Assembly: GCA_000442015.1 (NCBI GenBank)
Contig: KE561209.1
Coordinates: 186,001 to 250,000, forward strand
DNA from: Rozella allomycis CSF55
Lineage: Eukaryota
Reading direction: 5' to 3'
DNA length: 64,000 bases
The notes below the pieces were generated by a model. That model was not told the origin of the DNA, made no database searches, and saw only the letters and a list, made by a program, of their open reading frames with translations. Numbering within the stretch: the first letter of the stretch is position 1; each line of letters starts with the position of its first letter. The position numbers and the translations under genes are program-made. This document shows positions 10,033-62,212 of the stretch, piece by piece.

Positions 10033-12502
<2,470 letters not shown>

Positions 12503-14923: not shown

Positions 14924-16178
14924 ATGAATAGCACAACAGGATTAAATGATAATATGAGACAAACTTTGTTTCTGGCTTTAGAAGCTCTTGTGGATAACGA
15001 CAATTTGATACCAAACATAAATATCAGGAAAAAATCGAGTTTGCTATACCCTTTAATGACTGAAAATTCAGCGAAAACTATTACATCTACTACAAAGAGA
15101 AGGAGAGATACGACACCGACGTCCCCCTTTTTGAGTCAAGACTTTAAGGCTTTGAAAATTTCACCCTCTTTTGAAATGGACAGGCGTAAAGCTGAAGATG
15201 AAGATCCCACTGAAGAGTTAACTATCGAGTCTATGATAAACACCCAAAAGTCTCGTTCTTTATTAAAGTCACCAATATCACGACGCAAGAACGAATCTGC
15301 AAACCGAACCCGACCGGAAAATCAGTTCACTGTTAATTCGATTATGGATTCTCCTCCTCTCTCTTCTGTCTTACTTACTGAACAAATAGATTTGATAGAT
15401 AACTCCTTTTCCATAACAGATTCAGATATTCAACATTTTGAAAACGTTGTATCAAAGCCGTACCCTTTTTCTGAAAACATAGACATGGATGTCAACGAAA
15501 TACTTCAATTTTCACATAATCATAGCGCGATTTTTGAATTTGCGTTAAGCACGAACAATCCTTCTCACGAAAAAGTTATCCGTTGGGTCAACGCTACGTG
15601 GCTTTCGTGCATTGATAGAATTAAATCTTCAACATCACAAAACTTTTCTGCTTTTAGTGAAAAAGAAATAGTTATGGCTTTAATGGAGGATATTAGCAAC
15701 AAAGTTGTGCGATACAATTCGTCATTGTACACTGATTCATTACTCATTAAGATTCTAGAGCTGACAGTTTTCCACTTGCAGAAAGTTTCGATTGAATATT
15801 CTGAAACTATTAAAAAACAGTCTAAAAGTAAAATTATGGAATACTTCCAACAATATTTTGAAGTACCTTTCCTTTGTTAAGCCAATATTGCATCAGGCTG
15901 AAAGATTCGATTCTCAAATGATCAATTTACTATCATCTATTGGTGGATTACTTCTTGACGTCGGGTTGACCCTTTGTGAACATATAGTTAACCAAACTAC
16001 AGCAAAAGGTTCTACGGTTACTAGAACAATCCCTTTCCTTACACAATGGGTAATCTTTGCATTTCGTTTCGCATATAAATGTATTACTTTTTTCGGCTCT
16101 GAAAGAGAAACAGAGATGAAAATGCAGCTGTTACTTGCCAAACTTCAATCTAAATTGAAAAGGTCAGACTTGCTTTAG
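14924..16178 (+). CDS. Hypothetical protein (S/P-rich N-terminus, helical C-terminus)
   Basis: 318-aa ORF joined to a second ORF via GT donor at ~15863. Confidence 0.6.
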
Positions 16179-16398
16179 AGACCAACAAGAATTAATTGAC
16201 TATTTTATTTTAAAAATATTAATAATTGTAATAAATATATTCATCTTGACCACTAAATTTAATCAAAAACATTTGACTTCATTCGAGTGGATAAATTAAC
16301 TATTATTCATAAGCGTCGGAGTTGACTTAAATCACGATTACCATTTGATTTCATAGCCTTTTAATTTTTACCCACAAATTTCCTAATCTAGCAATATT

Positions 16399-17692
16399 AT
16401 GAAACCACATATTCCTAGAAAATATTGCTTTGTCATTCATTGTCGAGCATATAGTCAAGACAAGGCGCATCAATTAAATTGGTTTCCTGGGCATATGGCC
16501 AAAGGCTTGAGGCTCCTCGAATTCTACTCTAAAAAGGTTGATCTGGTGATAGAAGTTCGAGATGCAAGAATATCCTTTTTGTTAATATATTAAATACAAA
16601 CAGATCTTCTTAACTTCAAGTTCCATTCTCTTCAGAAAACCCCATGATACGCGACGTTTTCAAGAATGACAAACAGAGGCTGATATTATTCAATAAGTGC
16701 GATTTAGCCGACAAAAAGATGACAAAAGTACTGTAATATTTCCGCACATACTAAGTTTGTAATAGAACGTTTTCGCAAAGAGGGTTTGCAATGCGCTGCA
16801 ATAAACGCCAAGTGCCGCAAAGATGTGTCGAATGTATTAGACACAGTTAAGAAAATATTTTTACCAGATAACGATCGAGTATTAAAGCCAAGGACAAAAA
16901 TGATTATTGTTGGAGCTCCAAATGGTAACATGCATTTCATTCGATGGTTCTAGTTGGAAAATCAACTTTAATTAATAACTTCAGGTCGATGGCATTAGGA
17001 ATAGCAGGTAAAGCGGTGCCTGTTGGAAAAATCCCTGGTATTACAAAGACCACGGTAAGTAAATATGCTTTATATGACCCGGGTCAAATGATTAAAGTCA
17101 ATCAACATCCACTTGTTTACATGCTAGATTCTCCTGGTAGATCTTCTTTTAATTTTAATAATTAAGGGATTCTAGTTCCCAACATAACAAATATGAATAT
17201 CGCTTGTAAACTATTGATTGTTGGATGCGTGAAAGAAGGAATGATTGAACCTGTAATCGCAGCTAAGCAATTTATAAAATTAATGAATGAAGCTAGAAAT
17301 GAAAAGTAACCTGTATTTTGCGGATTTATTTATACAGGTACTTTAAATTTATCGGCCTTAATGCTCCAGTCAGTGAAGACGAAGAGCATAAATTTCTCAG
17401 GCAAATATGCAACCACCATAAAATATTTAAATCAGGTGGTGATTACGATTTTCAGAGAGCCTTTGAATTCGTTCTTCGACGATTTCGTGATGGTCACTTT
17501 GGAAGAATATCATTGGATGAGCCCCACGATTTAGGATGTTTAAAAAAAGAATTACAAATGAAAAGATTTATGAAATCACTAACTAGGCGCGAGAGAAAAG
17601 AAGTGAAAGACTCCAGATCTTCAAATGAAATGGAGATCCAGGAAAGGGTGCAAAACTTTCTCGGCAGAGAATCAATAAATTTGGATGATTAA
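16399..17692 (+). CDS. MTG1: Mitochondrial ribosome-associated GTPase MTG1 (RbgA/YlqF family)
   Basis: WFPGHMAKG, IEVRDAR, NKCDL, GAPNVGKST, LDSPG, GRISLD. Confidence 0.93.
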
Positions 17693-17786
17693 TATTGTTT
17701 TTAATTTAATTAAATAATTCTTATTTTTTTCTTGAGGGGAATTGTTTTTACAAGGCTCGGAAATTTTGCAATTTGTGAGAACGGTT

Positions 17787-19454
17787 ATGAGAAACTCGAT
17801 TACAGGATCGAGTGCAAAAATATCAGAGTTACAAAATGATCAATGCAAGGAAATTCTTCATGTGCATGTAAAAGACAAAGATGAAATTAAATTAATATAC
17901 GATTTTGGCGAAGTGTTAGGCCAGTAATTCATCTTGGAATTTATTTTTTAGAGGCGGCTTTGGAACAGTTAGATTAGTGAAAGAAAAGGGCACAGAAAAT
18001 ATTTACGCTGCAAAAGTTGTGAAGAAGAGTATCGGATCTCCATTGAGGCTAGAACAGATGGAGCGCGAGGTTGAAATATTGAAGCACGTGTCACATCCTT
18101 GCATTGTAAAGGTTAAAGAGGTATATGATACTCCAAAAGCTATATACATGATCATGGAATGGTAAAAAGTGGAGAAGAATTGAAGTAGGTGCCAAGGCGG
18201 AGATTTAGTAGACTACGTGAGCAAAATGAAGGAAATAAATGAAAGTCATATAAGAGTTATTATGAACAAGATTATGGACGCCATTGGTATTTCTGTGGAT
18301 TTGAGATAACATAGCGTTCCTTCATGATAATGGGATTGTGCATAGAGACTTAAAAGTAAATTATTCAGCTCTTATTGAAAGCCTGAAAACATTCTTTTGA
18401 GAAAGACTGGGGATCTTGGTTTTGATTTATGTGTGAGTGATTTTGGACTTGCAACTCTCAATGGAACATCAATGACAATTGGAACAAGCGAAATGATGGA
18501 TAACATGGTAGGAACAACGACTTACATGGGTAATTGATGCATAAGATGTCATATCAGCACCTGAAGTTCAGGGTAATGTAGGCTACTCAAAACAATGCGA
18601 TATATGGAGTGTAGGTGTAATGATGTTTCTACTGTAATAATTAATTGAGTATAAAAATAGCTTCTGCAAATTTGATAAAGAGGCAATGGTTAATCTTAGA
18701 GAAATGGTTGACTCTAAGAAAATTGCCTTTGAGGGCCCACGATGGGAGGGAATATCTAATGCGGGTATTGTAAATAAATGTTTTAAAATAAAGCCAAACA
18801 TTGTATCGAGAGAATGCTTAGACTGGATCCAGCTGAGCGCGCAACTGCTAAAGAAATTCTCAAACATCCCTGGATGCTGGTAAACATTAAACTTAATAGG
18901 ATATTGAGGGCCATGAAGATGTCGATTCAAAATATAATGCGACTGCTACTGTTTTAGATATGATGAGAAGTTACAACTCTGAGCGTCGATTAAAGGTAAT
19001 CATTTCATTATCAAGAAAGGAGAAAATAATGTTTGTTGTTTATGCAGCGTGTATATTGAGCTATCCTTATTTGCCGAAGTCTCTTGAATACCACGATGAA
19101 GAAGAAAACGAATCTCATTCAATGGAATTGCCATCTATTAATATAGGACCCAAGCATCAACCAAAAAAGACAACGTCTACACCCTCATTACCAGATATCG
19201 CAAAGTCTTCCAGGAGTAGCAAAACATCTGAGATATCCAAACATGAAAAACCAAATCTAAATAAGAACTTTGGAGGGTCGAGTAAACGACTCTCCACGAT
19301 ATCTCTTCAAACGAACAAAGGCAATCACCGAATCAGCAACGATGATATTTCTCCTCAACCGAGATCAAAGACGGGAAGTGTTTCCGATGTATCCAATTAT
19401 CGAAGGACATCAGTAGACAACAGGCTAAGAAAAAAAGAAGGCGCCAAAAAATAA
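17787..19454 (+). CDS. CAMK-group Ser/Thr kinase, STK33-like
   Basis: LGQGGFG, EREVEILKHVSHP, HRDLKPEN, SDFGLA, GTTTYMAPEV, YSKQCDIWS, TVLDMMR motif. Confidence 0.8.
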
Positions 19455-19480
19455 ATTTTATATAGAATTCAAACAAATGA

Positions 19481-19951
19481 TCAGTTCGAGTCGTAATCGA
19501 TTACTAATCCTTTTATCTTTGGTTTAGAATCATTTGTTGGTTTCTTTACAGCCTTTTTAATTAACTTCTTTTGGTTCAAAGATTCTGATATTGATGTATT
19601 CTTTTTCTTGGAGCCTTTAATTTCCATATTTTTTTCCTCCAATGGCTTGATTACAACTGATTCTTGGTCCATTTTGTATTTTAGCAGCGCATAATTTTCT
19701 TCTTCTTTTGAAGCTTGATACTTTTCTTTCATTTCATCATAAAGCTCTTTATAATGAAAGTATTCATCATCGTCTATTCTTTTTAAGGTATTATTCAAAC
19801 GATTTCTCTCCCTCCACATTTCTTCTTTTAACTCTTTTTGTTCTAAAATTCTCTCACTTAATGATTTTATCGGTTCAGAGGGCGGTTTAGGGGCATTCTT
19901 TATTTTTTCTTTTTCATTTACTTTTTCCACTATATTATCCCATTCTGACAT
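19481..19951 (-). CDS. FAM192A/NIP30 (PSME3IP1)-like protein
   Basis: SLSERILEQKELKEE...IDDDE..F and C-terminal GLVIDYDS. Confidence 0.7.
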   Translation of the reverse strand: MSEWDNIVEKVNEKEKIKNAPKPPSEPIKSLSERILEQKELKEEMWRERNRLNNTLKRIDDDEYFHYKELYDEMKEKYQASKEEENYALLKYKMDQESVVIKPLEEKNMEIKGSKKKNTSISESLNQKKLIKKAVKKPTNDSKPKIKGLVIDYDSN

Positions 19952-19975
19952 GCTTCAGATTCGTAAATTTGCAAA

Positions 19976-20212
19976 ATGGATTCCATGAAAGAAAAGGTCT
20001 TTAATTCTGCCAAAAAAGTTGACAAATATCACGATGAATTAATAGATTTTGTCTATGCCTTGCCTGAGACCCTAGACAATTTTGAATCTGACTATGAGGT
20101 ATTGTTCAAATTTGACAGTGTATAGATGATAGAAAAGGATTTAATGCAACAATATGACTATAACAACAATCTTTTATTACAGCTGATCAGTGCGTTGGAC
20201 AATAAAAAATAA
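19976..20212 (+). CDS. Small hypothetical coiled-coil protein (~69 aa, two exons; absent from ORF track)
   Basis: MDSMKEKVF...ESDYE | 27-nt GT-AG intron | MIEKDL...LDNKK*. Confidence 0.5.
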
Positions 20213-20257
20213 ATCATGTGATGGAGTCTCTTTAACTTTACGAAATATCTAATTTTT

Positions 20258-20941
20258 ATGAACCGAAAAACGCCCGATGAATTAAGAGCTCTAAAGGTAG
20301 CGGATTTAAAAAAAGAGCTTGGGAAATACGGTTTGCTCTTGACTGGTAAAAAGGAAGAGCTTATTGACAGATTAATTTGCTATTATGAGTAAAATAAATG
20401 CTCAAAGTATACTAGAACATCCGTTGAAAAAAAGCCTAAAGAGCCTGTAATTGAAATTGAAGATCACAGTGAAACTATTTTAACCCACGATGACAATGAA
20501 AGTAATGCAACCGAAAATAAAGATTTGTCTACTGTGATTAATATAAATAAAGAACTCAGTGAAGATGAGAAAAGAAAATTAAGAGCACAAAAGTTTGGAA
20601 TTGAATTGAGTGAAGAAGATAAAAAGAAAACGAGAGCACAGAGATTTAGTCAATCTGGAATAGATACGGTAACAAAATAGCAATAAATGATATTAGAATA
20701 ATTTAGACGTATTAAAAAAGAGGCAAGAAAGATTTAATTTTACAGGAAAAGCTTTGGATTCTGCAGAAAACGAAGAAAAACTTAGAAAACGAAGAGAAAG
20801 ATTCGGGTTAGTGGAACCGAACAAGGATTTTGAAAATAAAAAGGTATTTTTTGATGGTAGTTAAAACAGGGTAACAGTAATAGACATGGAGTAGGATTTA
20901 ATCGGGGCAGGAGAGGAAAGCGATCATTTCGTCCATATTAA
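20258..20941 (+). CDS. THO1: SAP-domain RNP Tho1/SARNP (absent from ORF track)
   Basis: SAP motif LKVADLKKELGKYGL..TGKKEELIDRL; repeated KRKLRAQKFG / KKRQERF / RKRRERFG; three GT-AG introns. Confidence 0.85.
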
Positions 20942-20992
20942 GCAGTACAATAAAATATAAATTTAGTTGAATTTAATGCATTTAAATTTATT

Positions 20993-23130
20993 TTATGTTG
21001 TTGGAATTTTCGTGCTGTTCGAATAACGCCTAGAATTCCTTCTAGGTTGAAATTGAACCGAATTCAATGATTCGACAGATCTATCGAAACCTCGATCGTA
21101 TTTATCAGGCATATGATCTAATACCATTGTTTTGCTAACGAGTATTTCGACAAAGTTTTCAGGGCTATTCTTTTCGATTACGGTGAATTTTGGGTTGGTC
21201 GGGGTGGGTTTTACGTACAAATGGTAGACAGTACCAGGAACATATAGCTGGAATATTTCAATGTATTAATTACTTTTTGATATGATAAAGCAGAAGTCTG
21301 AACCATTATAGCATTCCTGCATTCATCTAGTTTCTTCATCAAGTATTTTGACTTTTCGGATTTTGCCTCTTTACCAGCAATGATCCTCATAAGTTCTTTA
21401 AAATGGCTGTGACAATTTTCAGCGGCACACAGAATCATCGTCTTTAAATCCATCTTGTTGCGATATTGAGGAATACTTACCATCGATCCATAAGATGCGC
21501 GTGAAACAATATCTTCGCCATATATATATGAATGGATGTAATGTGAATATCTTTTTGAAATGTCAAGAGACACAACGCACGGCGGTGCGTATGCGTAACA
21601 TTCTATTTTGAACTTTTCTCGTTTAGGAAATTCATGGTAATGATCTTGAAGCATGATTGTTAACAAGGCTGCTGTACCTGCTCCTAAAGAATGGCCAACT
21701 ATCATCAAGTTCTCAACGTTGTAAATTGATACAAAGGAAATCAGTTGGCCAAGAACATTATCAATGAACCATTGTGCACTGGCATGAATTCCAGAATGAA
21801 CTAGCCCACCTTTCCACGGCTTATATTCACACACAAGGTCTGTTAAAGAATCTTTAAAGCTCATTGTGCCACGTATGCTTAAAATTATTGCAGATGTTCT
21901 TCTGTCAATTGCAATGAAATAACAAGGCCTGAAGACTTTTTCACTTGCTAGTTCAAAATTTAAAAGATCTGGTTTCTGAAGAGAAAGATATTCCAGAACA
22001 CTCTTTTCATCAGATTTGGACCGCACAGAGTCAGCAATGTATCCATTCCCCTTACCAAAGAAATTTAGCCCCTTCCATCCATAAGCTGCCATAGAAAATT
22101 TATAATAATGGCGAGATCTTTCAGCAAATTCCATAGAGTTGACCAAATCCCCGGTTCTTGGTCTAAAATTGAATGAAAACATAAAATTAACCTTGGGACG
22201 TGGAGATAAAAATTCTCTAATATGAAAATACTGGCGATCAATGTGGCATTACTAATCTCTAAGCCTTGGTTATAAGCCACCAAGATTGATTGAATTCCAC
22301 GAAGAACAGCAAGGGTTTCTTTACTAACAATGTAAGATCCAATTGTTTCCAGAAAAGAAACTCCTTTAGAAATTTCAGCCTCGGTCTCTAGAAATGTTTC
22401 TGTTGTTGAATAATCTGATGGTTGAACTGAAGAAATTTCATCATTGTCAGCCAAACTAGATTTACTTTTCCATTCGTTTATTAAATCTTCGAAAGAAATT
22501 TGCTTTTCTTTATCCTTCAACGTATTTTCATCTTCCACTTCTTCTTGGATCTCTTCTGGCACTTCAAACCCCATTCTGGAGATTGGGTTTACAGGATCTG
22601 GATCTGGCTTTTGAAATTGATATTTGATTGACACTTGAATAGCCCCAATATTATCTGAATAAATCGACCGTCTTCCTACTTCTGAAACACTGCTGGGAGC
22701 TTTTCTTTTATGCCAAATTTCAAACCAACTATATTTAAAGCAATATCCAACATACCAAGTAAACGGACATGGTATGCCTTCAAGCAATGAGATTCTTATC
22801 TCAGCCCTTCCAATATATCGGTCAGCTAAAACCAAATTGGAATCATAAACGTCCATCTTTTATTAATTTCTAGTTTTATTACATGAATAGACCAGAATAA
22901 TTGAGCGTGATATGTAACATTGAACTCAAATCCTTCATTCCAGTCTCCAATGGATGTATACGATGCCGATGTTCTGCAAACTTGATTTCCCAAAGAAAGT
23001 CTAATGTAAGGCCTCTTAATATCCATTGAAGAAGACATCTGCAGCACAGTCAGGTATAGCTTTGCAGAATGTGATAATTCCGAACCTTATATAACACACT
23101 ATTCCATTAGATACTCTGACTTGTTGACAT
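20993..23130 (-). CDS. C2-domain + class 3 lipase (DAG-lipase-like)
   Basis: C2-like PYIRLSLG..WNEGFEF; SIRGT, VHSG, GHSLG nucleophile, YAYAPP, DIVSR, MVLDHMP. Confidence 0.85.
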
Positions 23131-23163
23131 AAATCACTAAATCCAAAATCTGAAATTTCAGAA

Positions 23164-25110
23164 ATGACATGTCTTAGAGCAAAGCAAACTTTGGCTTTAA
23201 CAGAAATGTTAAAGTCTGTAGATAGTCTGTTCAAAGTCCTAATTTATGATGCTAAAAGCCAAGAAATTATCTCGCCACTCTTAAAGGTCTCCGATTTAAG
23301 AGATTTGGGAGTCACCATATTTTTAGCATTGCAAAGCGAAAGGATGTCTGTAGATGACGTACCCGCGGTTTATTTTGTAGAGCCAAGATTGTACAGTATC
23401 AGGAGAATAAGTCAAGTATACAATTGGTTTTGCATTTTCTGTAGGATCTCGAAAAAGGACTATATGAACAATTTTACTTGAATTTTACAAGTAGTTTGCC
23501 AAGACCGTTGCTTGAAGAGTTGGTTAGCTTAACTGTGAATAACCAAACCTATGGCAAAATTGTCAAAGTTTATGATCAATATCTAAATTTTGTAACCTTG
23601 GAAGACTACTTGTTTTCGTTACAAGCACATGATTCTTTTTCTATTATTCATGGACCGACCACTTCTCAGACAGTCATTGATGAATTTATTGACAAGACAA
23701 CCCAGGGGTTATTTTCATTATGTGTGACACTCGGTATTGATTTAAATTTAATATAACTAGGTGTTGTACCATCAATTAAAGCATCCAAAGGCAATGCCGC
23801 TGAAATTATCGCTTCCAAAATCGAATCGCGTTTGAGAGATTACATGTTGAATAACAGAAATGTGACTACCAACAGTGATGTTTTCAAACAAAGACCAGGT
23901 AAAAATATTCAAATTAATTAATTTCTGTTTTAATTCTATTGGATAGACATTTGGATTTGGGGATTATGATAAAGCACACTTGGAGTTATTCTACATTGGT
24001 ACACGACGTCTTGAATATGAATTTAAATAAAATTTCGATAAATGTTAATGAGAATGGACAAACCAGCAGAAAAATCGTTAGTGTGGATGACAAGGACTTT
24101 TTTTGGAAGACAAACTTCTTTGAGCCATTTCCACAAGTGGCAGAGAGAATCGATGAAGAAATTACAAAATATAAAAAAGAAGTTGAAGAAGTGACAAGAA
24201 TGGGTGGTGTTGAAAGCATCAACGATCTCAACCCATCGGACAATCAGTTTAACGCTCAACAACTGAAAGTCGCTATTTCAGCAGTTCCAAAATTAACAGA
24301 AAGGAAAAGAATAATTGACATGCACATGAATTTAGCAACATGCCTTTTAGATGAAATAAAGACGAGAACTATTGATAACTTTATAGCGTTGGAAGAAGAT
24401 TTCAATAAAACAACCAAAACGCAAATTTTAGACATTTTGAATGGCCAGAGTTCTTCCAATGACAAACTTCGTCTCGTTATTGCCTCTATTTTAGCGAACC
24501 CTGGTCAAGACTATTCTGATTTAAAAACAAAATTAGAATCATTGAATATCAACATAAGCGCCATTAGGTTTATTGAAAAGTAAAATTTAAATTAATGGGT
24601 TCATAGAAATCGTTCGTTGGGAAGAATGACTGACAAAAATGTGAAAGTGAGTAGCTCTAATTCGTCACAAGATTTGTTTGGAAAGTTTAAATTACCAGAA
24701 AATTTTAGAGAGGGCTCCTCTATTCTTGGAGGAGCTCTTGGTAATTTGATGTCCGGAGTTAAAAAGTTGTTTCCTGTTCATTCCGACTCAATAATTACAA
24801 GGATGATAGATTCCATATTATTAAATGAACAAGAATCAGAAAGTGATTTTGTTTCATTAGATCCAACGCAATCAAAAGCAGATAAGAAGGGGAAGAATAC
24901 CACGCCCGTAGCACCAAAGGAAGATGCGATAGTGTTTCTTGTAGGCGGTGGAAACTATTTGGAATACCAAAATATACAAGAATATTGCACAGTAAATGTT
25001 TTTTACTTGTATTATAGCGAACGAAACGAAAAATTATCTATGGGGCAACGGAAATTGTAACCCCTGACAAATTTCTAAACCAATTGCAAGAACTAGGAAT
25101 TCCAAAATAA
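23164..25110 (+). CDS. SLY1: Sec1/Munc18 protein Sly1 (SCFD1)
   Basis: FKVLIYD, IISPLLKVSDLRDLGVT, DVPAVYFVEP, IDMHMNLAT, AIVFLVGGGNYLEYQN. Confidence 0.95.
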
Positions 25111-25226
25111 AAACATTGATAAAATTCATTTGCTATTTGCAAATATTGCATATTTCGACTTCCTTCGTCTAGAATAAAAAATGTGCGAGGACCCTTTATT
25201 GTTACTTTTGATGATCACAAACCACA

Positions 25227-25297
25227 GCGTCAGTGGTTTAGTGGTAAAATTAGCCCCTGCCACGGGTTAGCCCCGAGTTCGATTCTCGGCTGACGCA
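25227..25297 (+). tRNA. tRNA-Gly (GCC)
   Basis: GCGTCAG/CTGACGC acceptor stem, D-loop AGTGGTA, anticodon loop CTGCCAC, T-arm CCGAG-TTCGATT-CTCGG, followed by a T5 terminator. Confidence 0.95.
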
Positions 25298-25424
25298 TCT
25301 TTTTGGACAATTAAATTTTCTTTATGATTTGCCAATTCAACTTTTCATTTATATTCCATTCAAATATAACCCTAGCCTAAGCAGAAACATGTTTGTTTTG
25401 GAAAGCATTGATATACATCGCTTA

Positions 25425-25620
25425 TTTTTTTTTTTTTAAATATATACAATTAAGTCAATAATCGTATTTATTAAGGATGAGGGATCCACATCGTCAAAGT
25501 CACCAAGGAGTCGAACCCTGCCTCACCCTAAAACCCCGGAAAATTCGGAAACATGGATGGGGTTCGAACCATGCACCTAGACGTCCAAAAGGATCTAAGT
25601 TTGCCACTAGACCACCGGAC
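25425..25620 (-). mobile_element. tRNA-derived SINE-like element or tRNA-like Pol III ncRNA
   Basis: Minus strand: A box TGGTCTAGTGG, B box GGTTCGAACCC, second B box GGTTCGACTCC, then AATAAA and an A13 tract; acceptor stem not formed. Confidence 0.5.
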
Positions 25621-25660
25621 AGTCATTTGTCTTTTCGTAACTTGTAAATTTCCGACAAGT

Positions 25661-26087
25661 ATGACCACGAGAAAACCCAGATCACAAAGGTAAATTTCTT
25701 TTTAATGTAATGTTTTGGTATGTTAATGGTGCATTTGGTCCATCTCAGCAAAGCTACGCTCCCGCTCAACCAATAGCCACTGTGCAAGAATACGAAGATC
25801 ATACTTCGCACTATGTTAACAGACTGTCGTCTAAAGTTGATACGCTGAAATCAGTATTCTTTTATATATGTTTTTATTAGATCAGCATAGACATAGGCAA
25901 GGAGGTTAATGAACAAAATCAATTTCTAGATTCTATGCGAACTGATTTTGAAAAGTCCGAAAATGTGCTTAGTCAAACATTAATGCGTTTAAGAGTTATG
26001 GCTGCAACTCAAGGGGGTGGTATGTTTTTGTACTTGACTCTTTTTATCGTCGGTGTTGTTAGCTTCATTTATTTTAAGGTTTTATAA
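25661..26087 (+). CDS. BET1: Qc-SNARE Bet1 (absent from ORF track)
   Basis: LSSKVDTLKS|ISIDIGKEVNEQNQFLDSM..DF, C-terminal TM anchor; start 25661 or 25710. Confidence 0.88.
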
Positions 26088-26137
26088 TTTAAAACATCAT
26101 AGAATCCCTCGCATAAACTATTTATTGTAAAATAAAC

Positions 26138-27391
26138 TTAAAAATCAACTTGTTGAGTTTGAGACGGAACACATTCCACTGGACAGTAGGGGCATTTGAA
26201 GCGACTAAACTTAAATAATGTAATAGATTACTTGTTATTTCCTTTTGATAATTTTGTAACTGCCTCCTTGCTAAGTATATGTCCACATGGCAATATCATA
26301 GGTGGGTTTTCGTCAGTCGATGTTTGTTTCATAACTGGACAAGCAAACACTGAGTGGAAAGAGTATTTTATGGGAAGTTCAATTTCGATCTCTTTTGATT
26401 ATATTTAGAATTTACCGGAAGTTCGTTTTGTTGAGTCCATTCAGCCTTCTTTTCTTTTACAATTGTTGAAAGCTTCTGTAGTTTTGGGAGGGCTACAGCA
26501 CTCGCTTCCAGAGCCAGCAATAAAGGATCAGTATTGGGTAATCCAATCTTCGAGCAAAATTCATTCATGAGCATATTCTCAACAGTCTCCCATTGTTCAT
26601 CCATCGAAATCGACGGGATCAATTGGCTTCCCATAGGGTAAAGCAGAAAAGACATTAATTTTTGTATTTCTTTAATCTGGGATGCTCCAAAATCCTTAAA
26701 ATTTGCCCTGGCGTATTCCAAAGCCTTTTTGCTTCCAAATGCTTTTTGAGTCATCAAAAATCCAGTCTTGTACAACTCAAACTTTAGAGGAGACTTTCTT
26801 TCGCTTAAAAATTTCTCGTTTCTATTTGCCCATCTTTGTCCGAAAGATGCTTAGCATTTACTTTAAGGCTTCATCCAGTTTTTTCATCTTTAAAGAGTGA
26901 ACTATGATAAATAATTCGTTAAGAGCGTTCTTCATTTCATTGGGAAGGGGCAAGGCTGCTTCCTTTATACGTCAATTAATTCAAATACCTTGCTTAAGGT
27001 CTCACTTACACTAAACTTTCCATTTCTGAGATAGTGATGCATGATTGCAGTCATTAATGCGTCTTTTTGATCATTAGTAATCTCGGATGTTGCCGTTTGA
27101 TCCATTTCATCACCCTTGAATTTCTAACTTGGTGTAATTTGGCAATCTTTACTTTTTCCACCTGCTTTGAGAATTTAGAAATATTCAAACTAGTTGTCTT
27201 GCATTGGGCGGAAAGCGATTCTATGGTTCTCATGGCGCATTTGACGCTATTCTCAATCGATTGAACTAAATTAGTCAGTTTTGGACTTTACTATCACTAG
27301 ACTCTTCAAAAAGTGAACATATATATGATAAAGCTTTTGAAGTAGATTGAAATTGCGCACTCACAGATTCAGATGTCTTATCAAATTCCAT
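26138..27391 (-). CDS. GID/CTLH complex RING subunit RMND5/Gid2
   Basis: LisH-like IMHHYLRNGKFSV, ELPIEIEL, FHSVFACPV, NPPM..PCGH, FKCPYCP. Confidence 0.88.
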
Positions 27392-27510
27392 GTATGACAA
27401 TGACAAGGGGTCAATATCATATAATCAATGTGATCATAGAAATTATTATTATTTTATTATTTTATTCCTTACGCTGTGTTCCAATCGTTTCAAATGCCGA
27501 CTCAGCCATT

Positions 27511-28200
27511 ATGCAAACTGAATACTTTTCATCCACGAGCGATAGTGATTCCTGCGACATTGGCTGGGTTAACAGTTTTCTAAACCACAAAGGAAATGAA
27601 TATTATTGCGAAGTCGATCAAGAATATATCCTTGATAAATTCAACTTGGCTGGTTTGCCCAGTGAAGTTAAAGATTTTGAGAAAGCATATGAGATAATAA
27701 TCGATGAGGCAGGTAAAATATATTCTGTATTTTTATTTCGATTTCGATGAAGAAAATGAAGAACTCTACTATTCAGCGTGTCATTTGTATGGCTTAATCC
27801 ATTCTAGATATATAATTTCGCCAAAAGGGTTGTCTAAAATGGTACACAAACGTTTTTAATTTAATTTTTAAGCAATCCAAATTTAAACAAGCAACTTTCG
27901 GTAAGTGTCAGAGAACACTATGCCAAGAATTTCCACTACTACCAGTTGGGATTAGCGACGCTCCTGGAATGGCTCATGTATATCTTTATTGCGCAAAATG
28001 CAGTAATTATGGCATTTATTTGTTTAAAAGATGATGTTTACAGTCCAAGTCACACAATATACAAATCAATCGATGGTTGTCATTTTGGGAGGACCTTTCC
28101 CCATTTCTTCTTTTTGACTTTCCCAAACTTATTTCCTTTAGAAAAACCAATGACTTATAAACCTAGAATGTTCGGTTTCAAACTGAATGGTTTAGAATAA
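27511..28200 (+). CDS. CKB: Casein kinase II beta subunit
   Basis: WVNSF...GNEYYCEVDQEYILDKFNL, LYGLIHSRY, FGKC.R..C, IDGCHFGRTFPH, PRMFGFK. Confidence 0.92.
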
Positions 28201-28250
28201 AGCAGTTGTACCAAAAATGCATATGATTTATTTTAATAAATATTAAAATA

Positions 28251-28705
28251 TTAAGACTTTTCTTCTACGCAAACAAGTGATTCATAGTTATTTGAGTCTG
28301 TCGAAACAAATACAATTGTGTCTTCTGTCATGGGATCGTATATACAACGTAGATCGACGTCCTTTTCTACCGTTTCATCTTCATTGGATGATTCAACAGG
28401 AGAATTTGTTGAGGATGTTTTTTTACCCTCTTCCTCATTCACTGGATTTTCTTTTGAACCTCTTTTGTACGCAACTTTTTTTAATTTTGATCTGCTTTCA
28501 GGATTCAATTTTCTCTTGTTTACTTTAACTCTATCTTCATTAATTACTAATTTTACGCTGAATTCAGAACTAGTTCTTGTGACTGAGATATCTGATGTGA
28601 AACAGTTGATCTGGTATTCGAACCTCTTAGCTGTCCACATATTTCACAAGAGTATGATATCATCTGGTTATGAAAAGTGCAAGTTGGACATTCCCAAAAA
28701 GACAT
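28251..28705 (-). CDS. RanBP2-type zinc-finger protein
   Basis: WECPTCTFHN....SCEICG N-terminus spliced (26-nt GT-AG) into a K/E-rich ORF. Confidence 0.65.
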
Positions 28706-28736
28706 CGAAATCTCAACGGTGGAGCAGCCACATTTA

Positions 28737-29147
28737 ATGTTTCGACAATCACTTTCATTATTCATCAAGAAGCAAAAGGAAACATTTCCTCCTCGAGGTA
28801 TGATATTAACATTTTGTACATAGATCCTAGCCATACAGTTGAATGGTTTCTAAAAACTATTCGTAGAGAATGTGATCAATATATCGACAAATTTAAAGAC
28901 TGGGATCACTTATTTACAGTAACAAGTAAAGAAATGGAAGAATTGGGCATCCATGCTCGAGCCAGAAAGAAAATATTGATGTGGACCGAGCGTTATAGGT
29001 AAGACATAACTATAATGGTTGATAAGACAAGGTTTTGATCCATTTTACATTTATCCGTCACAAAAACTTGTCAGAAAACATATTCAATTAAGGCGAATGG
29101 CTGAAGCAAAGGCAGCAGAAAATCAGAATAAGCAAGGAAATCAATAA
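28737..29147 (+). CDS. FYV4: Mitoribosomal mS41/Fyv4 (IGR-motif) protein
   Basis: MFRQSLS... presequence; VEWFLKTIRR...WDHLFT.TSKEMEELGI..RARK.IL.W.ERYRQG. Confidence 0.75.
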
Positions 29148-29249
29148 TCATGATTAAACCGTTAAAATATATTTTCAAATGTATTTTTATCGCCATTTTA
29201 AAATAGAAATGTTTTAGGCTCATTGATAATAATCATTTGAATTTATTGA

Positions 29250-30429
29250 CTAGTCCGTCTTGTTGGTTTTTAAGGAATTGATTAAAGATCGACCATGTTT
29301 ATGAGCTTCTTTACTTCTTTCCAAACGAGATTGAGGGCCTATATCTCTTCTAGTAACAAAATCATAGAGCACTTTCCACCAAGATGTATGATAGCACAAA
29401 GGCTCATAAAACTCCTTTGCAATTTCCTTGATTTTTGGAAGCTTTGACCATGGAATCTAAATATGTTGAATCATCTAGATTTACTTTTGTGAAGTCATGA
29501 TGCTCATTGTGATAACCAATATTCATTAAAATGTAATTAAAGCTTCCATAATAAGAATATGTTTCTTGTCCGTCTTTAAATGTATAATGCTCTTGAATAA
29601 AATGCCCAGCACATGGATGAATGCCATAACCAAACCATAGAGACAAAAATAGGTAGGTGAACCCTTTAACGCCACAAGTTTGCAAAATAACTAGTTTTCT
29701 ATTAATGATTGTAATACCTAAGTCTGAAACCAGTGTAAATCCCAGGTTTGCTAATTCCCAAAATGTTGGCCTTCTTTTCATCGCAGCACCACGTACTACG
29801 TACATCATTGGAAAGAAAAATAGCCAAATAAACTTTAGTAGAGTATTTCCTTTAACAAGTTTGTATTCGAATTCCATGGGCAAGTCTGGATCCTTATCGT
29901 CAACACCTATAATTGCCAAATCCTTAAGGATACCTTGATATGCGTGATGTTCTAAATGATATCGTCTAAATGAGTGTGATATTGGAAACACAATGGGTAT
30001 ATTAACAAACAAGCCCATAAATCTATTAAACACTGGAGTCTCAAAAAATAGATCATGTGCAGCTTCATGAACTAAAGTTCCTACTGTTTGAGTCAGTGTT
30101 GCCCCAATAATGTAGGCAGCAAGTGCAATAACGGCCCATGAAGAATTCATGTCACCCAAAACATGGGCCAGGGAAATTTGTATAGCGACAACAGCCAATG
30201 CTATATACTTTGACTTTGATTCAGGACCGTACAGCTCTTTTATTTCTGGATGACTTTCTAAAATAGCTCTTTTGCGTTTAATATGAGGTTCATCCAAATG
30301 ATCCACGGCAAAAGACTCATCATGGTAAGGAACACTTCTTTTCCATAGTCCAAGAAATAAAGGACTTCTATAATCTTCTTTTGGAAGTTTTTCAGCGGAA
30401 AAAACGCCAGGTAATGTTGACACAACCAT
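29250..30429 (-). CDS. DEGS1: Sphingolipid delta-4 desaturase
   Basis: EPHIKRKRAIL..HPEIK, His boxes HEAAH, HLEHH, HNEHH; HPCAGHFIQEHY. Confidence 0.93.
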
Positions 30430-30527
30430 AATGAAGTGGCTGAACACTGAAAGATGTGAAAATCTTTAATAGATTGATCAAACGTATATAACTTTGATAA
30501 AATGATAACTAAAATCTGTGATTTATT

Positions 30528-31623
30528 CTATTTTGATTTAGCCCGAGATACACTGGATGCATTGACTCTTTTTAGGGTGCTGTTTATAAAATTTCCCGCC
30601 ACAATAAGTTTGTCCAAGTTGACACCAGTGTCATATCCTAGTCCTTGTAGCATGTATACCACATCTTCTGTAGGTACATTTCCCGTTGCCCCTAATGCAT
30701 ATGGACATCCCCCTAGAAAACAAATTACCTATCTATCATACCTAGACCCCCGACTGAACCATCCACTACTCTAATCCCATACTAACAGCACTTTAATAAG
30801 TTTTTACTTCTTCAACTGCCACATAAATATTAGCCAATGCTTGTCCGTATGTGTTATGAAAGTGAACTGCTAATTTGTCACTGGGGATCCGATGCTTTAA
30901 ATAATCTAGTAAAGATCTAATTTCACCTGTCAATAAAATGTTTAAAACTTACCCGCATGACCAATGCCTATTGTATCACCTAAGGACACTTCATAACATC
31001 CGAGATCAAGTAGGCGATTAGAAACCTCAAAGACTCTTTCGGTTTTAACTTTTCCATCGTAAGGACAAGCAATCACACAGGAAACATATCATATTATATC
31101 ACTACTTTAGAATTACCCTCTTGTTTTAATATTATTTCTTGTAGCTTCCTTTATAACCGGTTCAAATCTTTCAAAGCTTTCGTCAATACTGCAATTAATA
31201 TTTTTCTGAGAAAATCCCTCACTTGCTGAAGCGAATACCGCAATTTCTTTCACATTGGATTTTATCGCCAACTCCAAACCTTTCAAATTTGGTACTAATG
31301 CTGCATAAGTAATTCCCGGTTTTTGATTAATTTGTGAAAATACATCTGCCGCGTCTGCCATCCACTGGATTCTGTAGCTTTGTCATTACCTGAGGGATTC
31401 TCTTTGGAGACACAAAACTACTAGTTTCAATATATTTTAATCCCGTGTCACTTAAGAGATTAATCAATTGTACTTTATTAGCCGTGCTAACGAGTGTTTT
31501 TTCATTCTGAAGACCGTCGCGTGGACCAACTTCTACGATTTTAACAAACTTTGATGCCTTTTAGAACTTATTTTAAAATCATACCGTGGATTTGAATCTG
31601 CGACTCAACGCTAGTAATATCAT
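30528..31623 (-). CDS. HMGCL: HMG-CoA lyase
   Basis: [68 protein letters not shown]. Confidence 0.96.
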
Positions 31624-37329: not shown

Positions 37330-40300
37330 AATATGAAGTACACAAATTTGGAAGACCAATCATGGAAGTCTTCTTCTTGAACTCACTCGTTATGGGAGTC
37401 ATCTAGATTCTTCCATTTCACCAAGTATTCATCTTTATTTTTATTCATTATCCTATGTTGAAGAATCTTTTCCACTTTATGTGCAGAAGTGTCTATATTC
37501 GGGATTATCCCCTTAAAAAGTTTTAAGACATGAAGAGGTCTTGTCTATAAAGTTCCATCTGGTCCTAACAAGATGTATGCTCCTCATTTGTTTCGTCTTA
37601 CAATCTTGAATGGCCCTCTGTAATAGGGTTCTGATTTCTTAGACCTGAGGTCATCTTTAATCATTAAAAATGCTCCTATTTTATCCGATTGTGTCTCAAG
37701 AATTTACCCCCTTCCAGATACGCGTTGTTTCTGGCTATTCTGTTGATTTCGGGATATAGAATCTGTTTCATTTAATTGAGTCTCTGTATCAACTCTTTTC
37801 CAGATATCTCTTGGAGAAGTGTGTTATTACTAAAATCGTTGAAATTGTTCGATTGTCTCGCGATCATTAAAGACAATGGAGTGGATTTGGTCGTGTCGGA
37901 CACTCTCAAGTTTAGAATGTATTGAGTCTGATCAATAAAATTACCCCCTTCTGTATCTTTTCCTCTCACATTCTTGTAGATTGTGTTCGCTACTGTTCCA
38001 AAAAAACCTTTCCGCTATTCTATTAGCTCTAGGGTTGTATGGTGTGATGAAACTCTGACATATGTTTGATAATTTCACCATTTCAGAAATGATTCTATTA
38101 AGAAATTCTCGACCGTTGTCCGATCGAATGCTCTTTGTGAACCCGAATTCACAAAACGGAGAAAACAATATTGTTGCTATTGTTTTCATTTCCGTGTCTT
38201 GTAGGGCTCTAAGAAATATAAATCTGGTACATGTGTCAACTATAAGTAACCTATACTTATTTTTTCTTTTGGATAATGGAAATTCTTTCAAGTCCATAGA
38301 GACCTCATTGAATGGTAACATACAAGTTGTGGAATTCAACTAATGAAATCCATTTTTTCCTACGTTGAACCTCTGACAGTCAATGCAATTCTGGACTACC
38401 TTTTTACAGTCTGATCTGATGGATGACCAGTTGAAGCCCTTCGATCGTATCTGTTTCACCATTGATTTCTCCCCAAAATGTCCGATTTCATGAGCTTGTT
38501 TAATAAGATTTTCTCGTTCTTCCAGAGTTGGATTTTGTGTAGCCTCCTGCTGGAGTGTTTCAACAATTTTAATCTCCTTGATCGGAATGTTGATCTGTGA
38601 AATATCTCTCACTTCCTGTTGAAATTCCAGCTCTGTGTGATTCATAAATTCAACATTCATTTTTTGCTTGTCTTTTGTATCAATCGTCCAAACTACATAT
38701 TGATTATATGAAGGAGTGTTTCTATCCATCTTTATAAATGTTTCTTGACTAGTTGTGATGACTATTGGATTGGAGATTGTGTACTCCTTTAACAATTTAA
38801 ACCAAGTTTCGTTTTCCTTCATCGGTGTTAAAATTGATGCCTTTGATTTATCAATGATTAATTTCACTAGAAGTTTGTGAATGAGATCTTCCTTGAGTTC
38901 TGCCCAAATTACTTCGTTTCCTTGTCTTGCTAATAACACGGCTCCGAGGCCTCTGCTGGAAGCATCTGTGGCAAGATTTAAAAGTTTGTTAAAATCAGGA
39001 TAGTTCAACATTATTTGACTCCAGAGTACCTCTCTGTTGGTGTCGTATATTCTCTGATATTCTCCATTCCAAACCACGTTCTTAGCCTTTCGCATCTTAT
39101 CTAGTGGTTGGGTGAGCATGGAATAATTTGGTATCATATCTCTGAAGAAATTGAAGAATCCCAACTGTTGTTCAATCATATTACTGTTGACTGGTACTTC
39201 CCAATCATCCATTATCAAAAACTTTTCCGGAACAATCGTAATGCCTTTTCTGTCTATCTTGAATCCGGGAACATTCATTTCTTGACAGGCAAATTGGCAC
39301 TTGGGTATGTTTATCAGTAGTTGAATTCTGTTTAACTCTTCAATGATAATAGATACATGTCCTAGGTGTTCTTTGTACGATTTTCAGTGAATTATGATAT
39401 CGTCTATATAAACTTTCACAAAGTCGTATTTGCTCAAGAACTTTGTCATCACGTTTTGTAACTCAGCAGAAATGTTCGTGATGCCGAATAATGGAGCTCC
39501 AACAAAGTTATACTGGTTTCCGTTCCATGTAAACGTTGTTTTGACTTAATCATCCTCTTTAACTCTAAATTGATGAAATCCCGCTCTCAAGTCTATCTTG
39601 GTAAATACCACAGATCCTTTCATGGCTTCAAGAATCTCTTTTATCAGCGGTAANTACTGTTGACTGGTACTTCCCAATCATCCATTATCAAAAACTTTTC
39701 CGGAACAATCGTAATGCCTTTTCTGTCTATCTTGAATCCGGGAACATTCATTTCTTGACAGGCAAATTGGCACTTGGGTATGTTTATCAGTAGTTGAATT
39801 CTGTTTAACTCTTCAATGATAATAGATACATGTCCTAGGTGTTCTTTGTACGATTTTCAGTGAATTATGATATCGTCTATATAAACTTTCACAAAGTCGT
39901 ATTTGCTCAAGAACTTAGTCATCACGTTTTGGAACTCAGCAGGAATTTTCTTGAAGCCGAATGGAGCGCAAACAAAGTTTTATTGTTTTCCGTTCCATGT
40001 AAACGTTGTTTTTACTTGATCTTCCTCTTTAACTCTAAATTGATGCAATCCCGCTTTCAAGTCTATCTTGGTGAACACCACAGATCCTATCATGGCTTCA
40101 AGAATCTCTTTTATCAGCGGTAATGGATATGTAATGGTCTTTGTAATCTGATTGATGTGTCGCGGATCAAGGCATGTTCGCCAACCTGTGATATTCCCAG
40201 CTACATCCTTCGTAGCTACAACGAGCAAGAAACTATTCCATTCAGAATGTCCATTCAGTTCCTTAATGAAACCGTCTTTCTTCCATTTTTCAACTTGTCC

Positions 40301-42760: not shown

Positions 42761-42944
42761 CTGGCGTTGAATGAGGCTGTGAATTTGTTTGAAAAGAATG
42801 CACAGGATCGTTGTCCCGAAATCATAACCTTAAAAATGGTATTTAGGAATAAGTAGCATGAATATAATACTCATTGCGTGAACTATAGACTTTTTATAGT
42901 TCACAGTTTTATCATCAGTCCAGTTCATTTAATTTACTAATTTA

Positions 42945-62172: not shown

Positions 62173-62212
62173 TTTAAGCCAACGAATAAATTGACATATT
62201 ATTATTACTCAC

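What the first reader, a model, noticed from the sequence alone, without database searches (positions are those of the whole stretch)
23899..31116. Tiny introns with non-AG 3' splice sites: a possible relaxed 'NG' acceptor system
Seen: nearly all introns I could reconstruct are GT-AG and 26-30 nt, yet two conserved genes need a GT...TG intron of the same size (SLY1 23899-23927; HMGCL 31090-31116). Four further candidates end in CG, TG or GG at the same distance from the donor (MTG1 17055-17081, BET1 25690-25717, CK2b 27713-27740, HMGCL 31362-31389). The -1 G is kept in all six while -2 varies. Position -3 is also lax: AAG and GAG acceptors are common, and nearer AGs are skipped. Established: U2AF35 and Prp8 normally enforce AG, and non-AG acceptors are very rare. 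Inference: the 3' site may be set by distance from the donor or branch point (a ruler), with a spliceosome that has lost -2 A specificity.
Basis: partly seen in the sequence, partly recalled or inferred. Interest (0 to 1): 0.85.

Follow-up and report, generated by a model that had tools for sequence, protein, structure and literature searches.

The report
Tiny fungal introns lacking AG ends
In this stretch of the fungal parasite Rozella allomycis nearly all introns are 26-29 bases long and end in AG, but at least two conserved genes only make sense if an intron ending in TG is cut out exactly, which would be an unusual relaxation of a near-universal splicing rule; no RNA data were available to prove it.

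Summary
The window is nuclear DNA of Rozella allomycis CSF55. My gene models give 110 ORF-obligate GT-AG introns of 26-34 nt, none shorter than 26.

Two non-AG introns are confirmed at DNA and homology level. SLY1 23899-23927 (GT..TG, 29 nt) restores RPVLILLDR without a gap against 92 homologs, at an intron position shared with 3 metagenome orthologs. HMGCL 31090-31116 (GT..TG, 27 nt, three in-frame stops) restores VRGYVSC against 119 homologs. The DNA contigs of two runs laid over all six sites show no difference there.

Of the four weaker candidates:
- HMGCL 31362-31389 (GG) and MTG1 17055-17081 (CG) have homology support.
- CK2b is ambiguous.
- BET1 is not needed.

New here: the introns show no branch consensus. 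An A sits at +23 or +24 from the donor in 96 of 110 introns, whatever the intron length.

No RNA evidence could be obtained, so splicing at NG is inferred. AG is still used in at least 95% of introns, so specificity is at most relaxed, not lost. GAG acceptors are rare (3 of 112).

The parts
23899..23927 (+). SLY1 intron, 29 nt, GTAAAA...TTCTG: GT donor, TG at the 3' end, phase 1 inside a Val codon (G|TT). A at +22 and +23.
   Evidence: Frames and stops. The next AG ends at +48. The model is gap-free (RPVLILLDR) against 92 of 93 homologs. Three metagenome orthologs have a GT-AG intron at the identical position and phase. X1 and X2 contigs differ from the window only at 23507, 23519, 23528 and 23531.
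31090..31116 (-). HMGCL intron 3, 27 nt, GTAATTC...AATATG: GT donor, TG at the 3' end. It is in frame with three stop codons. A at +22 and +23.
   Evidence: The model gives [15 protein letters not shown], with VRGYVSC contiguous in 119 of 119 homologs. The Pfam HMGL-like profile runs to 129 in one exon and starts at 129 in the next. X1 and X2 contigs over 31075-31608 show 0 other letters.
31362..31389 (-). HMGCL intron 2. Either 28 nt GT..GG (31362-31389, gives PQMAD) or 25 nt GT..AG (31365-31389, gives PQWMAD).
   Evidence: 0 of 119 homologs have a residue between PQ and MA. No obligate intron is shorter than 26 nt, and an AG ending at +25 is skipped in 5 of 5 other introns. The annotated protein P0105 uses the AG form.
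17055..17081 (+). MTG1 27-nt segment GTAAGT...GACCCG. It is in frame and stop-free, with A at +23. It is either a GT..CG intron or a translated 9-residue insert.
   Evidence: The read-through ORF carries exactly 9 extra residues against 3 PDB MTG1 sequences and 11 of 11 library homologs. A GT-AG alternative of 45 nt is seen. X1 and X2 contigs are identical here.
27713..27740 (+). CK2-beta intron. Either 28 nt GT..CG, or 40 nt GT..AG (27713-27752). Both are in frame. A at +23.
   Evidence: Pfam CK_II_beta reaches profile position 49 in one exon and restarts at 57 in the next. The acidic loop is variable, so homology does not decide.
25690..25717 (+). BET1 candidate. Rejected as unnecessary.
   Evidence: An in-frame ATG at 25710 opens the ORF without any intron. 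There is no A at +23 or +24, sequence.
23164..25110 (+). SLY1 gene, 6 exons, 602 aa in my model. The other five introns are GT-AG of 29, 27, 27 and 26 nt.
   Evidence: 40.6% identity over 633 columns to chytrid P0012.
30528..31623 (-). HMG-CoA lyase gene with 6 introns: 27 AG, 28 GG or 25 AG, 27 TG, 26 AG, 26 AG, 29 AG. It has its own stop codon at 30528-30530.

Best explanation
These are ordinary-looking U2-type spliceosomal introns of Rozella allomycis whose 3' terminal dinucleotide is not AG. Two are firm (TG). Two more have homology support (GG, CG) and one is possible (CG).

They are most likely still removed exactly at the G. In this genome introns are 26-29 nt. The branch adenosine appears to sit at a fixed +23/+24 from the 5' splice site. 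The 3' splice site lies only 2-6 nt beyond it. With so short a tether, very few nucleotides can reach the catalytic centre in the second step. The intron-final G would then be enough to dock the site. From recalled cryo-EM and genetic work, that G pairs with the intron's first G. An A at -2 would be strongly preferred but not obligatory.

Shown here:
- the DNA sequence;
- the need for exact excision to obtain conserved proteins;
- the ancestral intron position in SLY1;
- the 5'-anchored A.

Inferred: that splicing occurs at NG, and the steric ruler mechanism.
For: - SLY1: excising 23899-23927 gives RPVLILLDR. This string is identical in 80 homologs, and none of the 92 covering homologs has an insertion.
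- SLY1 intron position: L003, L004 and L005 carry a GT-AG intron at the same codon and phase. L001 has no intron there.
- HMGCL: excising 31090-31116 removes three in-frame stops and gives RGYVSC, contiguous in 119 of 119 homologs.
- Canonical-only public models must skip conserved blocks: 71 residues in P0011 and 18 in P0105.
- The introns those public models imply, 81 nt in HMGCL and longer in SLY1, lie far outside the 26-34 nt seen in 110 obligate introns.
- Both genes are otherwise intact.
- The four differences between the window and the X1/X2 contigs in the SLY1 exon are all third-codon-position and synonymous (my reading).
- In the X1 and X2 contigs that cover the sites, every listed difference lies elsewhere.
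- MTG1: the 9 extra residues are absent from 11 of 11 library homologs and 3 PDB homologs.
- HMGCL intron 2: 0 of 119 homologs have the extra Trp.
- A at +23/+24 occurs in 96 of 110 canonical introns and in 5 of the 6 candidates, the exception being BET1.
- All four non-AG ends fixed by donor plus homology-defined length end in G. Intron G content is 13%.
Against: - No RNA read or contig supports any junction. The only RNA run offered held nothing of this locus.
- In humans, TG 3' sites work only as alternatives to a nearby AG and never alone, and AG>TG mutants activate other AGs (PMC2374985).
- Contigs drop minor alleles, so a second allele with AG cannot be excluded.
- MTG1's segment is stop-free and in frame, so it may simply be translated. 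The single-cell gene model P0225 translates it.
- HMGCL intron 2 could use the AG at +25. Rozella lacks the conserved Trp of PKWVPQ, and the added Trp might compensate for that.
- CK2b has an in-frame AG option.
- The ruler has an exception: the 34-nt intron 12364-12397 skips an AG at +29.
- My intron set comes from my own gene finder, not from transcripts.
- With acceptors left free, the finder picks non-AG ends of every kind. At penalty 4.5, 9 of 136 introns were non-AG and only 3 of those ended in G. Coding potential alone therefore proves nothing.
Confidence: 0.6

Rival explanations
1. The non-AG segments are introns crippled by a recent AG>NG mutation. The affected gene copies would be non-functional, or rescued by a second allele or by rare mis-splicing. 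On this reading the spliceosome is conventional.
For: Human AG>TG mutants do not splice at TG (PMC2374985 section 12). The locus shows allelic differences in the DNA runs, with partial-depth variants tables 3 and 4. No RNA evidence is available.
Against: This would need 2 to 4 such hits in three conserved genes within 64 kb, among about 35 genes. SLY1 is otherwise intact and shows only synonymous allelic differences. The depth bins over SLY1 in X1 (300.2) and X2 (154) equal the depth of the single spanning contig, so no second contig lies there. Only one Rozella SLY1 appeared among the 94 hits.
Confidence: 0.17
2. The cell uses only canonical GT-AG sites, as in the deposited gene models. That means a long intron that skips 71 residues in SLY1, an 81-nt intron that skips 18 residues in HMGCL, a 25-nt intron in HMGCL, a 40-nt intron in CK2b, and no intron in MTG1 or BET1.
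For: The public models P0011, P0105 and P0225 are built that way. The weaker four candidates all have such canonical readings.
Against: The skipped blocks are the most conserved parts of the proteins: RPVLILLDR...PFPQ in SLY1 and YVSCVxxCPYxG in HMGCL. The same models also skip VGGGNYLEYQN in SLY1 and read through HMGCL's stop codon into the neighbouring desaturase gene, so they are unreliable. No obligate intron outside 26-34 nt was found within the 18-75 nt range searched.
Confidence: 0.12
3. Assembly or consensus error: the true base at -2 is A.
For: None was found. X1 and X2 may be the data the assembly was made from.
Against: Logan contigs, assembled independently from two runs of two studies, agree with the window over SLY1, both HMGCL sites, MTG1 and CK2b. 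Those pieces carry 0 to 4 other letters, and all of them lie elsewhere. The single-cell run X6 covers SLY1, but its difference list was truncated, so it is uninformative at 23926.
Confidence: 0.03

Closest known systems
Human TG-AG tandem alternative 3' splice sites (Szafranski et al. 2007, PMC2374985; abstract and section 12 read)
   Same: These are U2-type introns with a GT donor and a TG used as the 3' end. TG is the commonest non-AG acceptor. The SLY1 TG lies 19 nt upstream of an AG, inside their 28-nt limit.
   Different: In humans TG is only ever an alternative site and never the sole one. It involves 36 genes, about 0.01% of candidate motifs. Here TG would be the only productive site in two genes. 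The frequency would be about 2-4% of introns in the window, and CG and GG ends may occur too. The nearest downstream AG of the HMGCL TG is 41 nt away.
Ultra-short intron systems with a distance-set branch A: Stentor coeruleus 15-16 nt introns (PMC9505925, passages); myxozoan and dicyemid 20-27 nt introns (PMC13644364, passages)
   Same: GTA is conserved at the 5' end. There is no branch consensus and no pyrimidine tract. Weakly conserved As lie further from the AG the longer the intron is, which means they are anchored to the 5' end. The length distribution is very narrow.
   Different: Those systems are described as GT-AG and as compatible with conventional U2 splicing. The passages I read report no non-AG acceptors. 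Rozella's modal length is 27 nt, with the A at +23/+24. The list of short-intron exceptions in that paper's introduction does not include Rozella.
Microsporidian short introns (Encephalitozoon cuniculi), sister lineage (PMC6349667, passages)
   Same: A related lineage with very short introns. That paper already notes two introns of about 30 nt in the R. allomycis S23 gene that introduce premature stops.
   Different: [quoted passage not shown] Rozella is intron-rich, at 2.5 introns per kb (PMC8476143).
U12-type (minor spliceosome) introns, which tolerate non-AG ends
   Same: Non-AG 3' termini are accepted.
   Different: The donors here are GTAAAAAT, GTAATTCT, GTAATGAC, GTAAGTAA and GTAAAATA, not the RTATCCTT consensus (recalled). 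No U12-type branch box is present. Rfam found no minor snRNA in the window, only one tRNA.

Membership tests
U2-type spliceosomal intron | GT (GU) at the 5' end with a donor consensus | tested here: met
   All six candidates start with GTA. 109 of 110 canonical introns in the window have A at +3.
U2-type spliceosomal intron | AG at the 3' end | tested here: not met
   The ends are TG, TG, GG, CG and CG. The two firm cases have no canonical alternative that keeps the conserved residues.
U2-type spliceosomal intron | Branch adenosine upstream of the 3' site | tested here: inconclusive
   No consensus motif was found. A at +23/+24 occurs in 96 of 110 canonical introns and in 5 of the 6 candidates. 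No lariat data are available.
U2-type spliceosomal intron | Removal from the mRNA, shown by transcript evidence | not testable with these tools
   No RNA holder was listed. The RNA run X13 laid only 20-33-nt chance pieces.
U2-type spliceosomal intron | Position conserved with introns of orthologues | tested here: met
   For SLY1, L003, L004 and L005 have a GT-AG intron at the same codon and phase. This was not tested for HMGCL, MTG1 or CK2b.
TG-AG tandem alternative 3' splice site (human type) | TG used only beside an AG site within 28 nt | tested here: inconclusive
   In SLY1 an AG lies 19 nt downstream, but using it gives a frameshift. In HMGCL the nearest downstream AG is 41 nt away, and the upstream AGs at +12 and +15 are too near the donor.
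U12-type intron | RTATCCTT donor and TCCTTAAC-like branch box (recalled consensus) | tested here: not met
   The donor sequences read do not match.
Ultra-short intron system with 5'-anchored branch A | Narrow length peak under 30 nt, with conserved A at a fixed distance from the donor irrespective of length | tested here: met
   102 of 110 introns are 26-29 nt. A at +23/+24 is enriched in each length class, and no 3'-anchored pair of positions does better.

The most novel reading that the evidence does not exclude
Rozella allomycis defines the 3' splice site mainly by geometry. The branch A is fixed at +23/+24 from the donor and the splice site lies 2-6 nt beyond it. Only the terminal G is required. 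As a result, a few percent of its introns would be constitutively spliced at TG, CG or GG. That would make it the first eukaryote known to use non-AG acceptors as sole sites of U2-type introns at percent-level frequency.
Probability: 0.4. Interest if true: 0.8.

Novelty: new variant of a known kind. Interest (0 to 1): 0.65.

Why it matters
The AG at the 3' end of U2-type introns is one of the most constant signals in eukaryotic gene expression. The one documented exception I read about, human TG sites, works only next to an AG.

A free-standing TG, CG or GG acceptor in essential genes of an early-diverging fungal parasite would have three consequences:
- It would give a natural system for asking what the second catalytic step really needs.
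- It would tie that question to the geometry of minimal introns.
- It would explain why the deposited Rozella gene models lose conserved protein blocks. The SLY1 model lacks 71 residues. The HMGCL model lacks 18 and is fused to the neighbouring gene.

Annotation of this and related genomes with canonical-only splice models will be systematically wrong at such sites.

Tried and rejected
- RNA evidence. No RNA holder was listed for window:22000-31999. The one RNA run offered by label, X13, gave only 20-33-nt chance matches when laid. Expression and junction usage are therefore untested.
- Whole genome. None is held, so there is no genome-wide tally and no look at U2AF1/2, Prp8, Slu7 or Prp18.
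- Gene finder with free acceptors. At penalty 4.5, 9 of 136 introns were non-AG: TA, CT, TT, CG, TC, AC, TG x2 and CA. At penalty 3.0, 26 of 149 were non-AG and 8 of those ended in G. For SLY1 it even preferred a 26-nt TT end. I rejected this as evidence and used homology instead.
- Other non-AG picks of that run were dismissed on inspection:
  - 40987-41013 lies in an LTR retrotransposon.
  - 62169-62195 lies past the phosphatase stop codon.
  - 12370-12397 is contradicted by Pkinase profile continuity.
  - 15828-15855 lies inside an ORF that exactly matches a public protein.
  - 63891-63918 lies inside a continuous ORF.
- Branch motif search: no enriched YTNAY-like motif at any fixed distance from the 3' end.
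- G depletion between +26 and the AG: 3 G in 174 positions. The test is confounded by the fixed A at -2 and by the general avoidance of G at -3. Few free positions remain, so I did not use it.
- Metagenome scan for close relatives: 5 loci at 30-48% identity, none a close Rozella relative. They were useful only for the SLY1 intron position.
- Word-indexed search for MTG1 homologs: it found only the Rozella single-cell model. I replaced it with the full HMMER scan.
- Codon-usage 'coding cores' were too weak to delimit short exons.
- Literature. Searches found no report of non-AG acceptors or of the spliceosome of Rozella. The genome paper (James et al. 2013) was not seen. Supplements were closed and might hold intron tables, for example those of PMC8476143.


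Full report
**What the window is.** Five of eight intronless ORFs of the window are exact matches to public proteins that represent their own clusters. Near-identical cluster mates are named Rozella allomycis CSF55, and the contig is 719,121 bp. The annotated SLY1 and HMG-CoA lyase proteins of that species were later returned for this locus. GC content is 32-39%. The exons I read, for example in SLY1 and HMGCL, are read with the standard code. No whole genome is held.

**Intron landscape.**
- I wrote a dynamic-programming gene finder based on codon log-odds, GT donors and introns of 18-75 nt.
- Without a length prior it gave 92 GT-AG introns, 71 of them 24-32 nt. The longer ones mostly resolved into a 26-28-nt intron plus an in-frame extension.
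- With a length prior and AG only, it gave 128 introns. I dropped 11 as spurious: antisense run-on at 19.4-20.3 kb, a forced pair in SLY1, a retrotransposon, and the antisense of the HECT gene.
- Of the 117 kept, 112 are ORF-obligate, meaning either not a multiple of three or carrying an in-frame stop.
- I set aside a false join past the TPYFM* end of a PP2A-type phosphatase (62169-62231) and the ambiguous CK2b 40-nt option. That leaves 110: 26 nt x28, 27 x31, 28 x26, 29 x17, 30 x4, 31 x2, 32 x1, 34 x1. None is shorter than 26 nt.
- Position -3 is T 62, A 36, C 11, G 3 of 112. AAG is common and GAG is rare.
- AGs ending at +24 or +25 are unused in 11 introns. All five AGs at +25 are excluded by frame or by a resulting stop codon.
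- These models rest on my own predictor and not on transcripts. The predictor over-calls stop-free 27-nt in-frame segments. One of its five such calls, 27901-27927, removes what I recall as conserved cysteines of CK2-beta.

**SLY1.**
- The upstream exon ends ...KQRP with one base of the next codon. The downstream frame begins ...LILLDR.
- The only GT-started excision that joins them is 23899-23927 (29 nt), which ends CTG.
- The next AG ends at +48 and leads to a TGA.
- The spliced model is 602 aa, with 40.6% identity over 633 alignment columns to a chytrid SLY1. It reads RPVLILLDR. Of 93 homologs, 92 cover the site, 0 have an insertion there, and 80 have the identical nine residues.
- The deposited Rozella protein P0011 (502 aa) jumps from QRP to VAERIDEE and loses 71 conserved residues. 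It also loses VGGGNYLEYQN near the C-terminus, where a plain 26-nt GT-AG intron (24992-25017) does the job.
- Three of four informative metagenome orthologs (L003, L004, L005) carry a GT-AG intron at exactly the same place and phase, between the G and the TN of the Val codon after QRP or QRQ. L001 has no intron there. The Rozella segment therefore occupies an ancestral intron position.

**HMG-CoA lyase (minus strand).**
- Between ...NIKTRG and [12 protein letters not shown] lie 27 nt (31090-31116). They start GTAATT, end ATG, and are in frame with TAA, TAA and TGA.
- The internal AGs end at +12 and +15. The next ones are at +68 (out of frame) and +81.
- Removal gives RGYVSC, contiguous in 119 of 119 homologs. 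One homolog has an unrelated insertion four residues upstream.
- The Pfam HMGL-like coordinates abut, running to 129 in one exon and starting at 129 in the next.
- The deposited model P0105 uses the +81 AG and loses 18 conserved residues. It also splices past the gene's own stop codon into the neighbouring sphingolipid desaturase gene.
- The second site joins ...IPQ to MADAAD. A 28-nt GT..GG intron (31362-31389) gives PQMAD, as in 119 of 119 homologs with no insertion. A 25-nt GT-AG intron adds a Trp.
- In favour of GG: no other intron in the window is 25 nt, and +25 AGs are always skipped.
- In favour of AG: it is canonical, and Rozella has R where the homologs have the Trp of PKWVPQ, so the added Trp could be compensating.

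**MTG1.**
- 17055-17081 begins GTAAGT, is 27 nt long, has A at +23 and ends CCG. It is in frame and stop-free.
- The read-through ORF carries exactly nine residues that are absent from three PDB MTG1 sequences and from 11 of 11 homologs found by the full HMMER scan.
- It is either an intron with a CG end or a tolerated nine-residue insert. The single-cell gene model P0225 translates it.

**CK2-beta.**
- A 28-nt GT..CG intron (27713-27740, A at +23) and a 40-nt GT..AG intron (27713-27752) are both in frame.
- The Pfam profile leaves positions 50-56 open.
- The 28-nt reading is closer in length, but this acidic loop is variable. The case is undecided.

**BET1.** The proposed first exon is unnecessary, because ATG 25710 is in frame with the conserved part. 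The segment also lacks an A at +23/+24. I rejected it.

**Is the DNA right?**
- Contigs of DNA runs X1 and X2, from two studies, cover all the sites.
- The pieces over 16254-18230 and 31075-31608 have 0 other letters.
- The piece over 26118-29184 has one, at 28255.
- The piece over 22656-25256 has four, at 23507, 23519, 23528 and 23531. By my reading of the frame, all four are third-codon-position synonymous changes, which fits purifying selection on SLY1.
- The depth bins over SLY1 equal the depth of the single spanning contig in both runs, so no second-allele contig lies there.
- X6 also spans SLY1, but its list of differences was truncated.
- These runs may include the data behind the assembly, and contigs can hide minor alleles.

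**Mechanistic clue.**
- The 110 canonical introns carry information only at GTA(A) and at (A)(T/A)AG. No branch motif and no pyrimidine tract are visible.
- An A stands at +23 in 73 of them, and at +23 or +24 in 96 of 110. The shuffle mean is 69.3, the maximum is 85, and 0 of 5000 shuffles reach 96.
- For introns of 28 nt or more the count is 43 of 51, against a shuffle mean of 29.4.
- The enrichment stays at +23/+24 in the 26-, 27-, 28- and 29-nt classes. Position -4 drifts from 85% A to about 40%. No 3'-anchored pair of positions does better.
[quoted passage not shown] It also resembles the fixed branch A of Stentor's 15-16-nt introns (PMC9505925).
- It would explain why AGs at +24 or +25 are never used, since they sit at or next to the branch A.
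- It would also leave only 2-6 nt between branch and splice site.
- SLY1, both HMGCL sites, MTG1 and CK2b all have an A at +23/+24, with their proposed ends 4-6 nt further on.
- The ruler is not absolute. Intron 12364-12397 (34 nt) has an A at +23 yet skips an AG at +29. The Pkinase profile starts at position 18 exactly at the 34-nt acceptor.

**Comparison with what is known.**
- TG is the known non-AG acceptor of U2-type introns in humans, but only as an alternative within 28 nt of an AG and never alone. AG>TG mutants do not splice at TG (PMC2374985).
- Here TG would be the sole productive site.
- Short introns of about 30 nt that lack the microsporidian motifs were noted for one Rozella gene (PMC6349667).
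- I found no report of non-AG acceptors in this lineage. The genome paper and all supplements were not seen.
- That the intron's last G pairs with its first G, and that -2 A contacts the branch A, is recalled from yeast genetics and cryo-EM. It was not checked here.

**Verdict.**
- In this window that is 2 firm cases, and at most 5, among about 119 introns (1.7-4%). That is far above what I recall as the usual background for GT...non-AG introns.
- That these introns are spliced at the G is a strong inference from conserved protein sequence and from intron position. It is not a demonstration.
The claim that -2 specificity has been 'lost' does not.

Noticed in passing
whole window; e.g. 23416-23444, 24580-24606, 31558-31584: An A at +23 or +24 from the donor is found in 96 of 110 canonical introns, anchored to the 5' end in every length class. 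No branch consensus and no pyrimidine tract are visible. This looks like a distance-set branch point, as recently described for myxozoan and dicyemid ultra-short introns.
   Followed up: yes
23164-25110 (+) and 29404-31623 (-): The deposited Rozella gene models are wrong here. P0011 (SLY1) lacks 71 conserved residues plus the VGGGNY block. P0105 lacks 18 residues of HMG-CoA lyase and fuses it to the neighbouring sphingolipid delta-4 desaturase by splicing past the lyase's stop codon at 30528-30530.
   Followed up: yes
about 37790-42830 (-): A degenerate LTR retrotransposon with gag, aspartyl protease, RT, RNase H and integrase Pfam hits. It contains 8 of the window's 10 single-N positions and has slightly higher GC. 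The pseudo-introns predicted there are frame breaks, not introns.
   Followed up: partly
42948-44612 (-) and 49455-51152 (+): Two intronless paralogous genes of 555 and 566 aa with a weak TAP-like hydrolase hit and near-identical N-termini. They lie in inverted orientation about 5 kb apart, flanking the REP/GDI-like and Myb genes and the UPRTase gene.
   Followed up: no
25144-25777: Contig depth jumps about 50-fold or more in all three DNA runs: 16,520 in X1, 7,850 in X2 and 36,887 in X6, against about 300, 150 and 84 nearby. Many alternative joints and loose ends occur around 25427-25626, next to tRNA-Gly(GCC) at 25227-25297. This is a high-copy, tRNA-like repeat family.
   Followed up: no
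23507, 23519, 23528, 23531: The window differs from the X1 and X2 contigs at four positions of one SLY1 exon, while X6 agrees with the window. All four are third-codon-position synonymous changes. X6 in turn differs from the window at 31 listed sites in 19462-21907. This suggests two haplotypes.
   Followed up: partly
12364-12397 (-): A 34-nt GT-AG intron in the STE20-like kinase gene skips an AG ending at +29. It is the only obligate intron longer than 32 nt and is an exception to a strict distance rule.
   Followed up: yes
22163-22252 (-): One junction of the lipase (class 3) gene is unresolved. It is either a 38-nt GTAATG...GAG intron or a 29-nt intron with the only GTT donor in the set. 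No homologs were fetched.
   Followed up: partly
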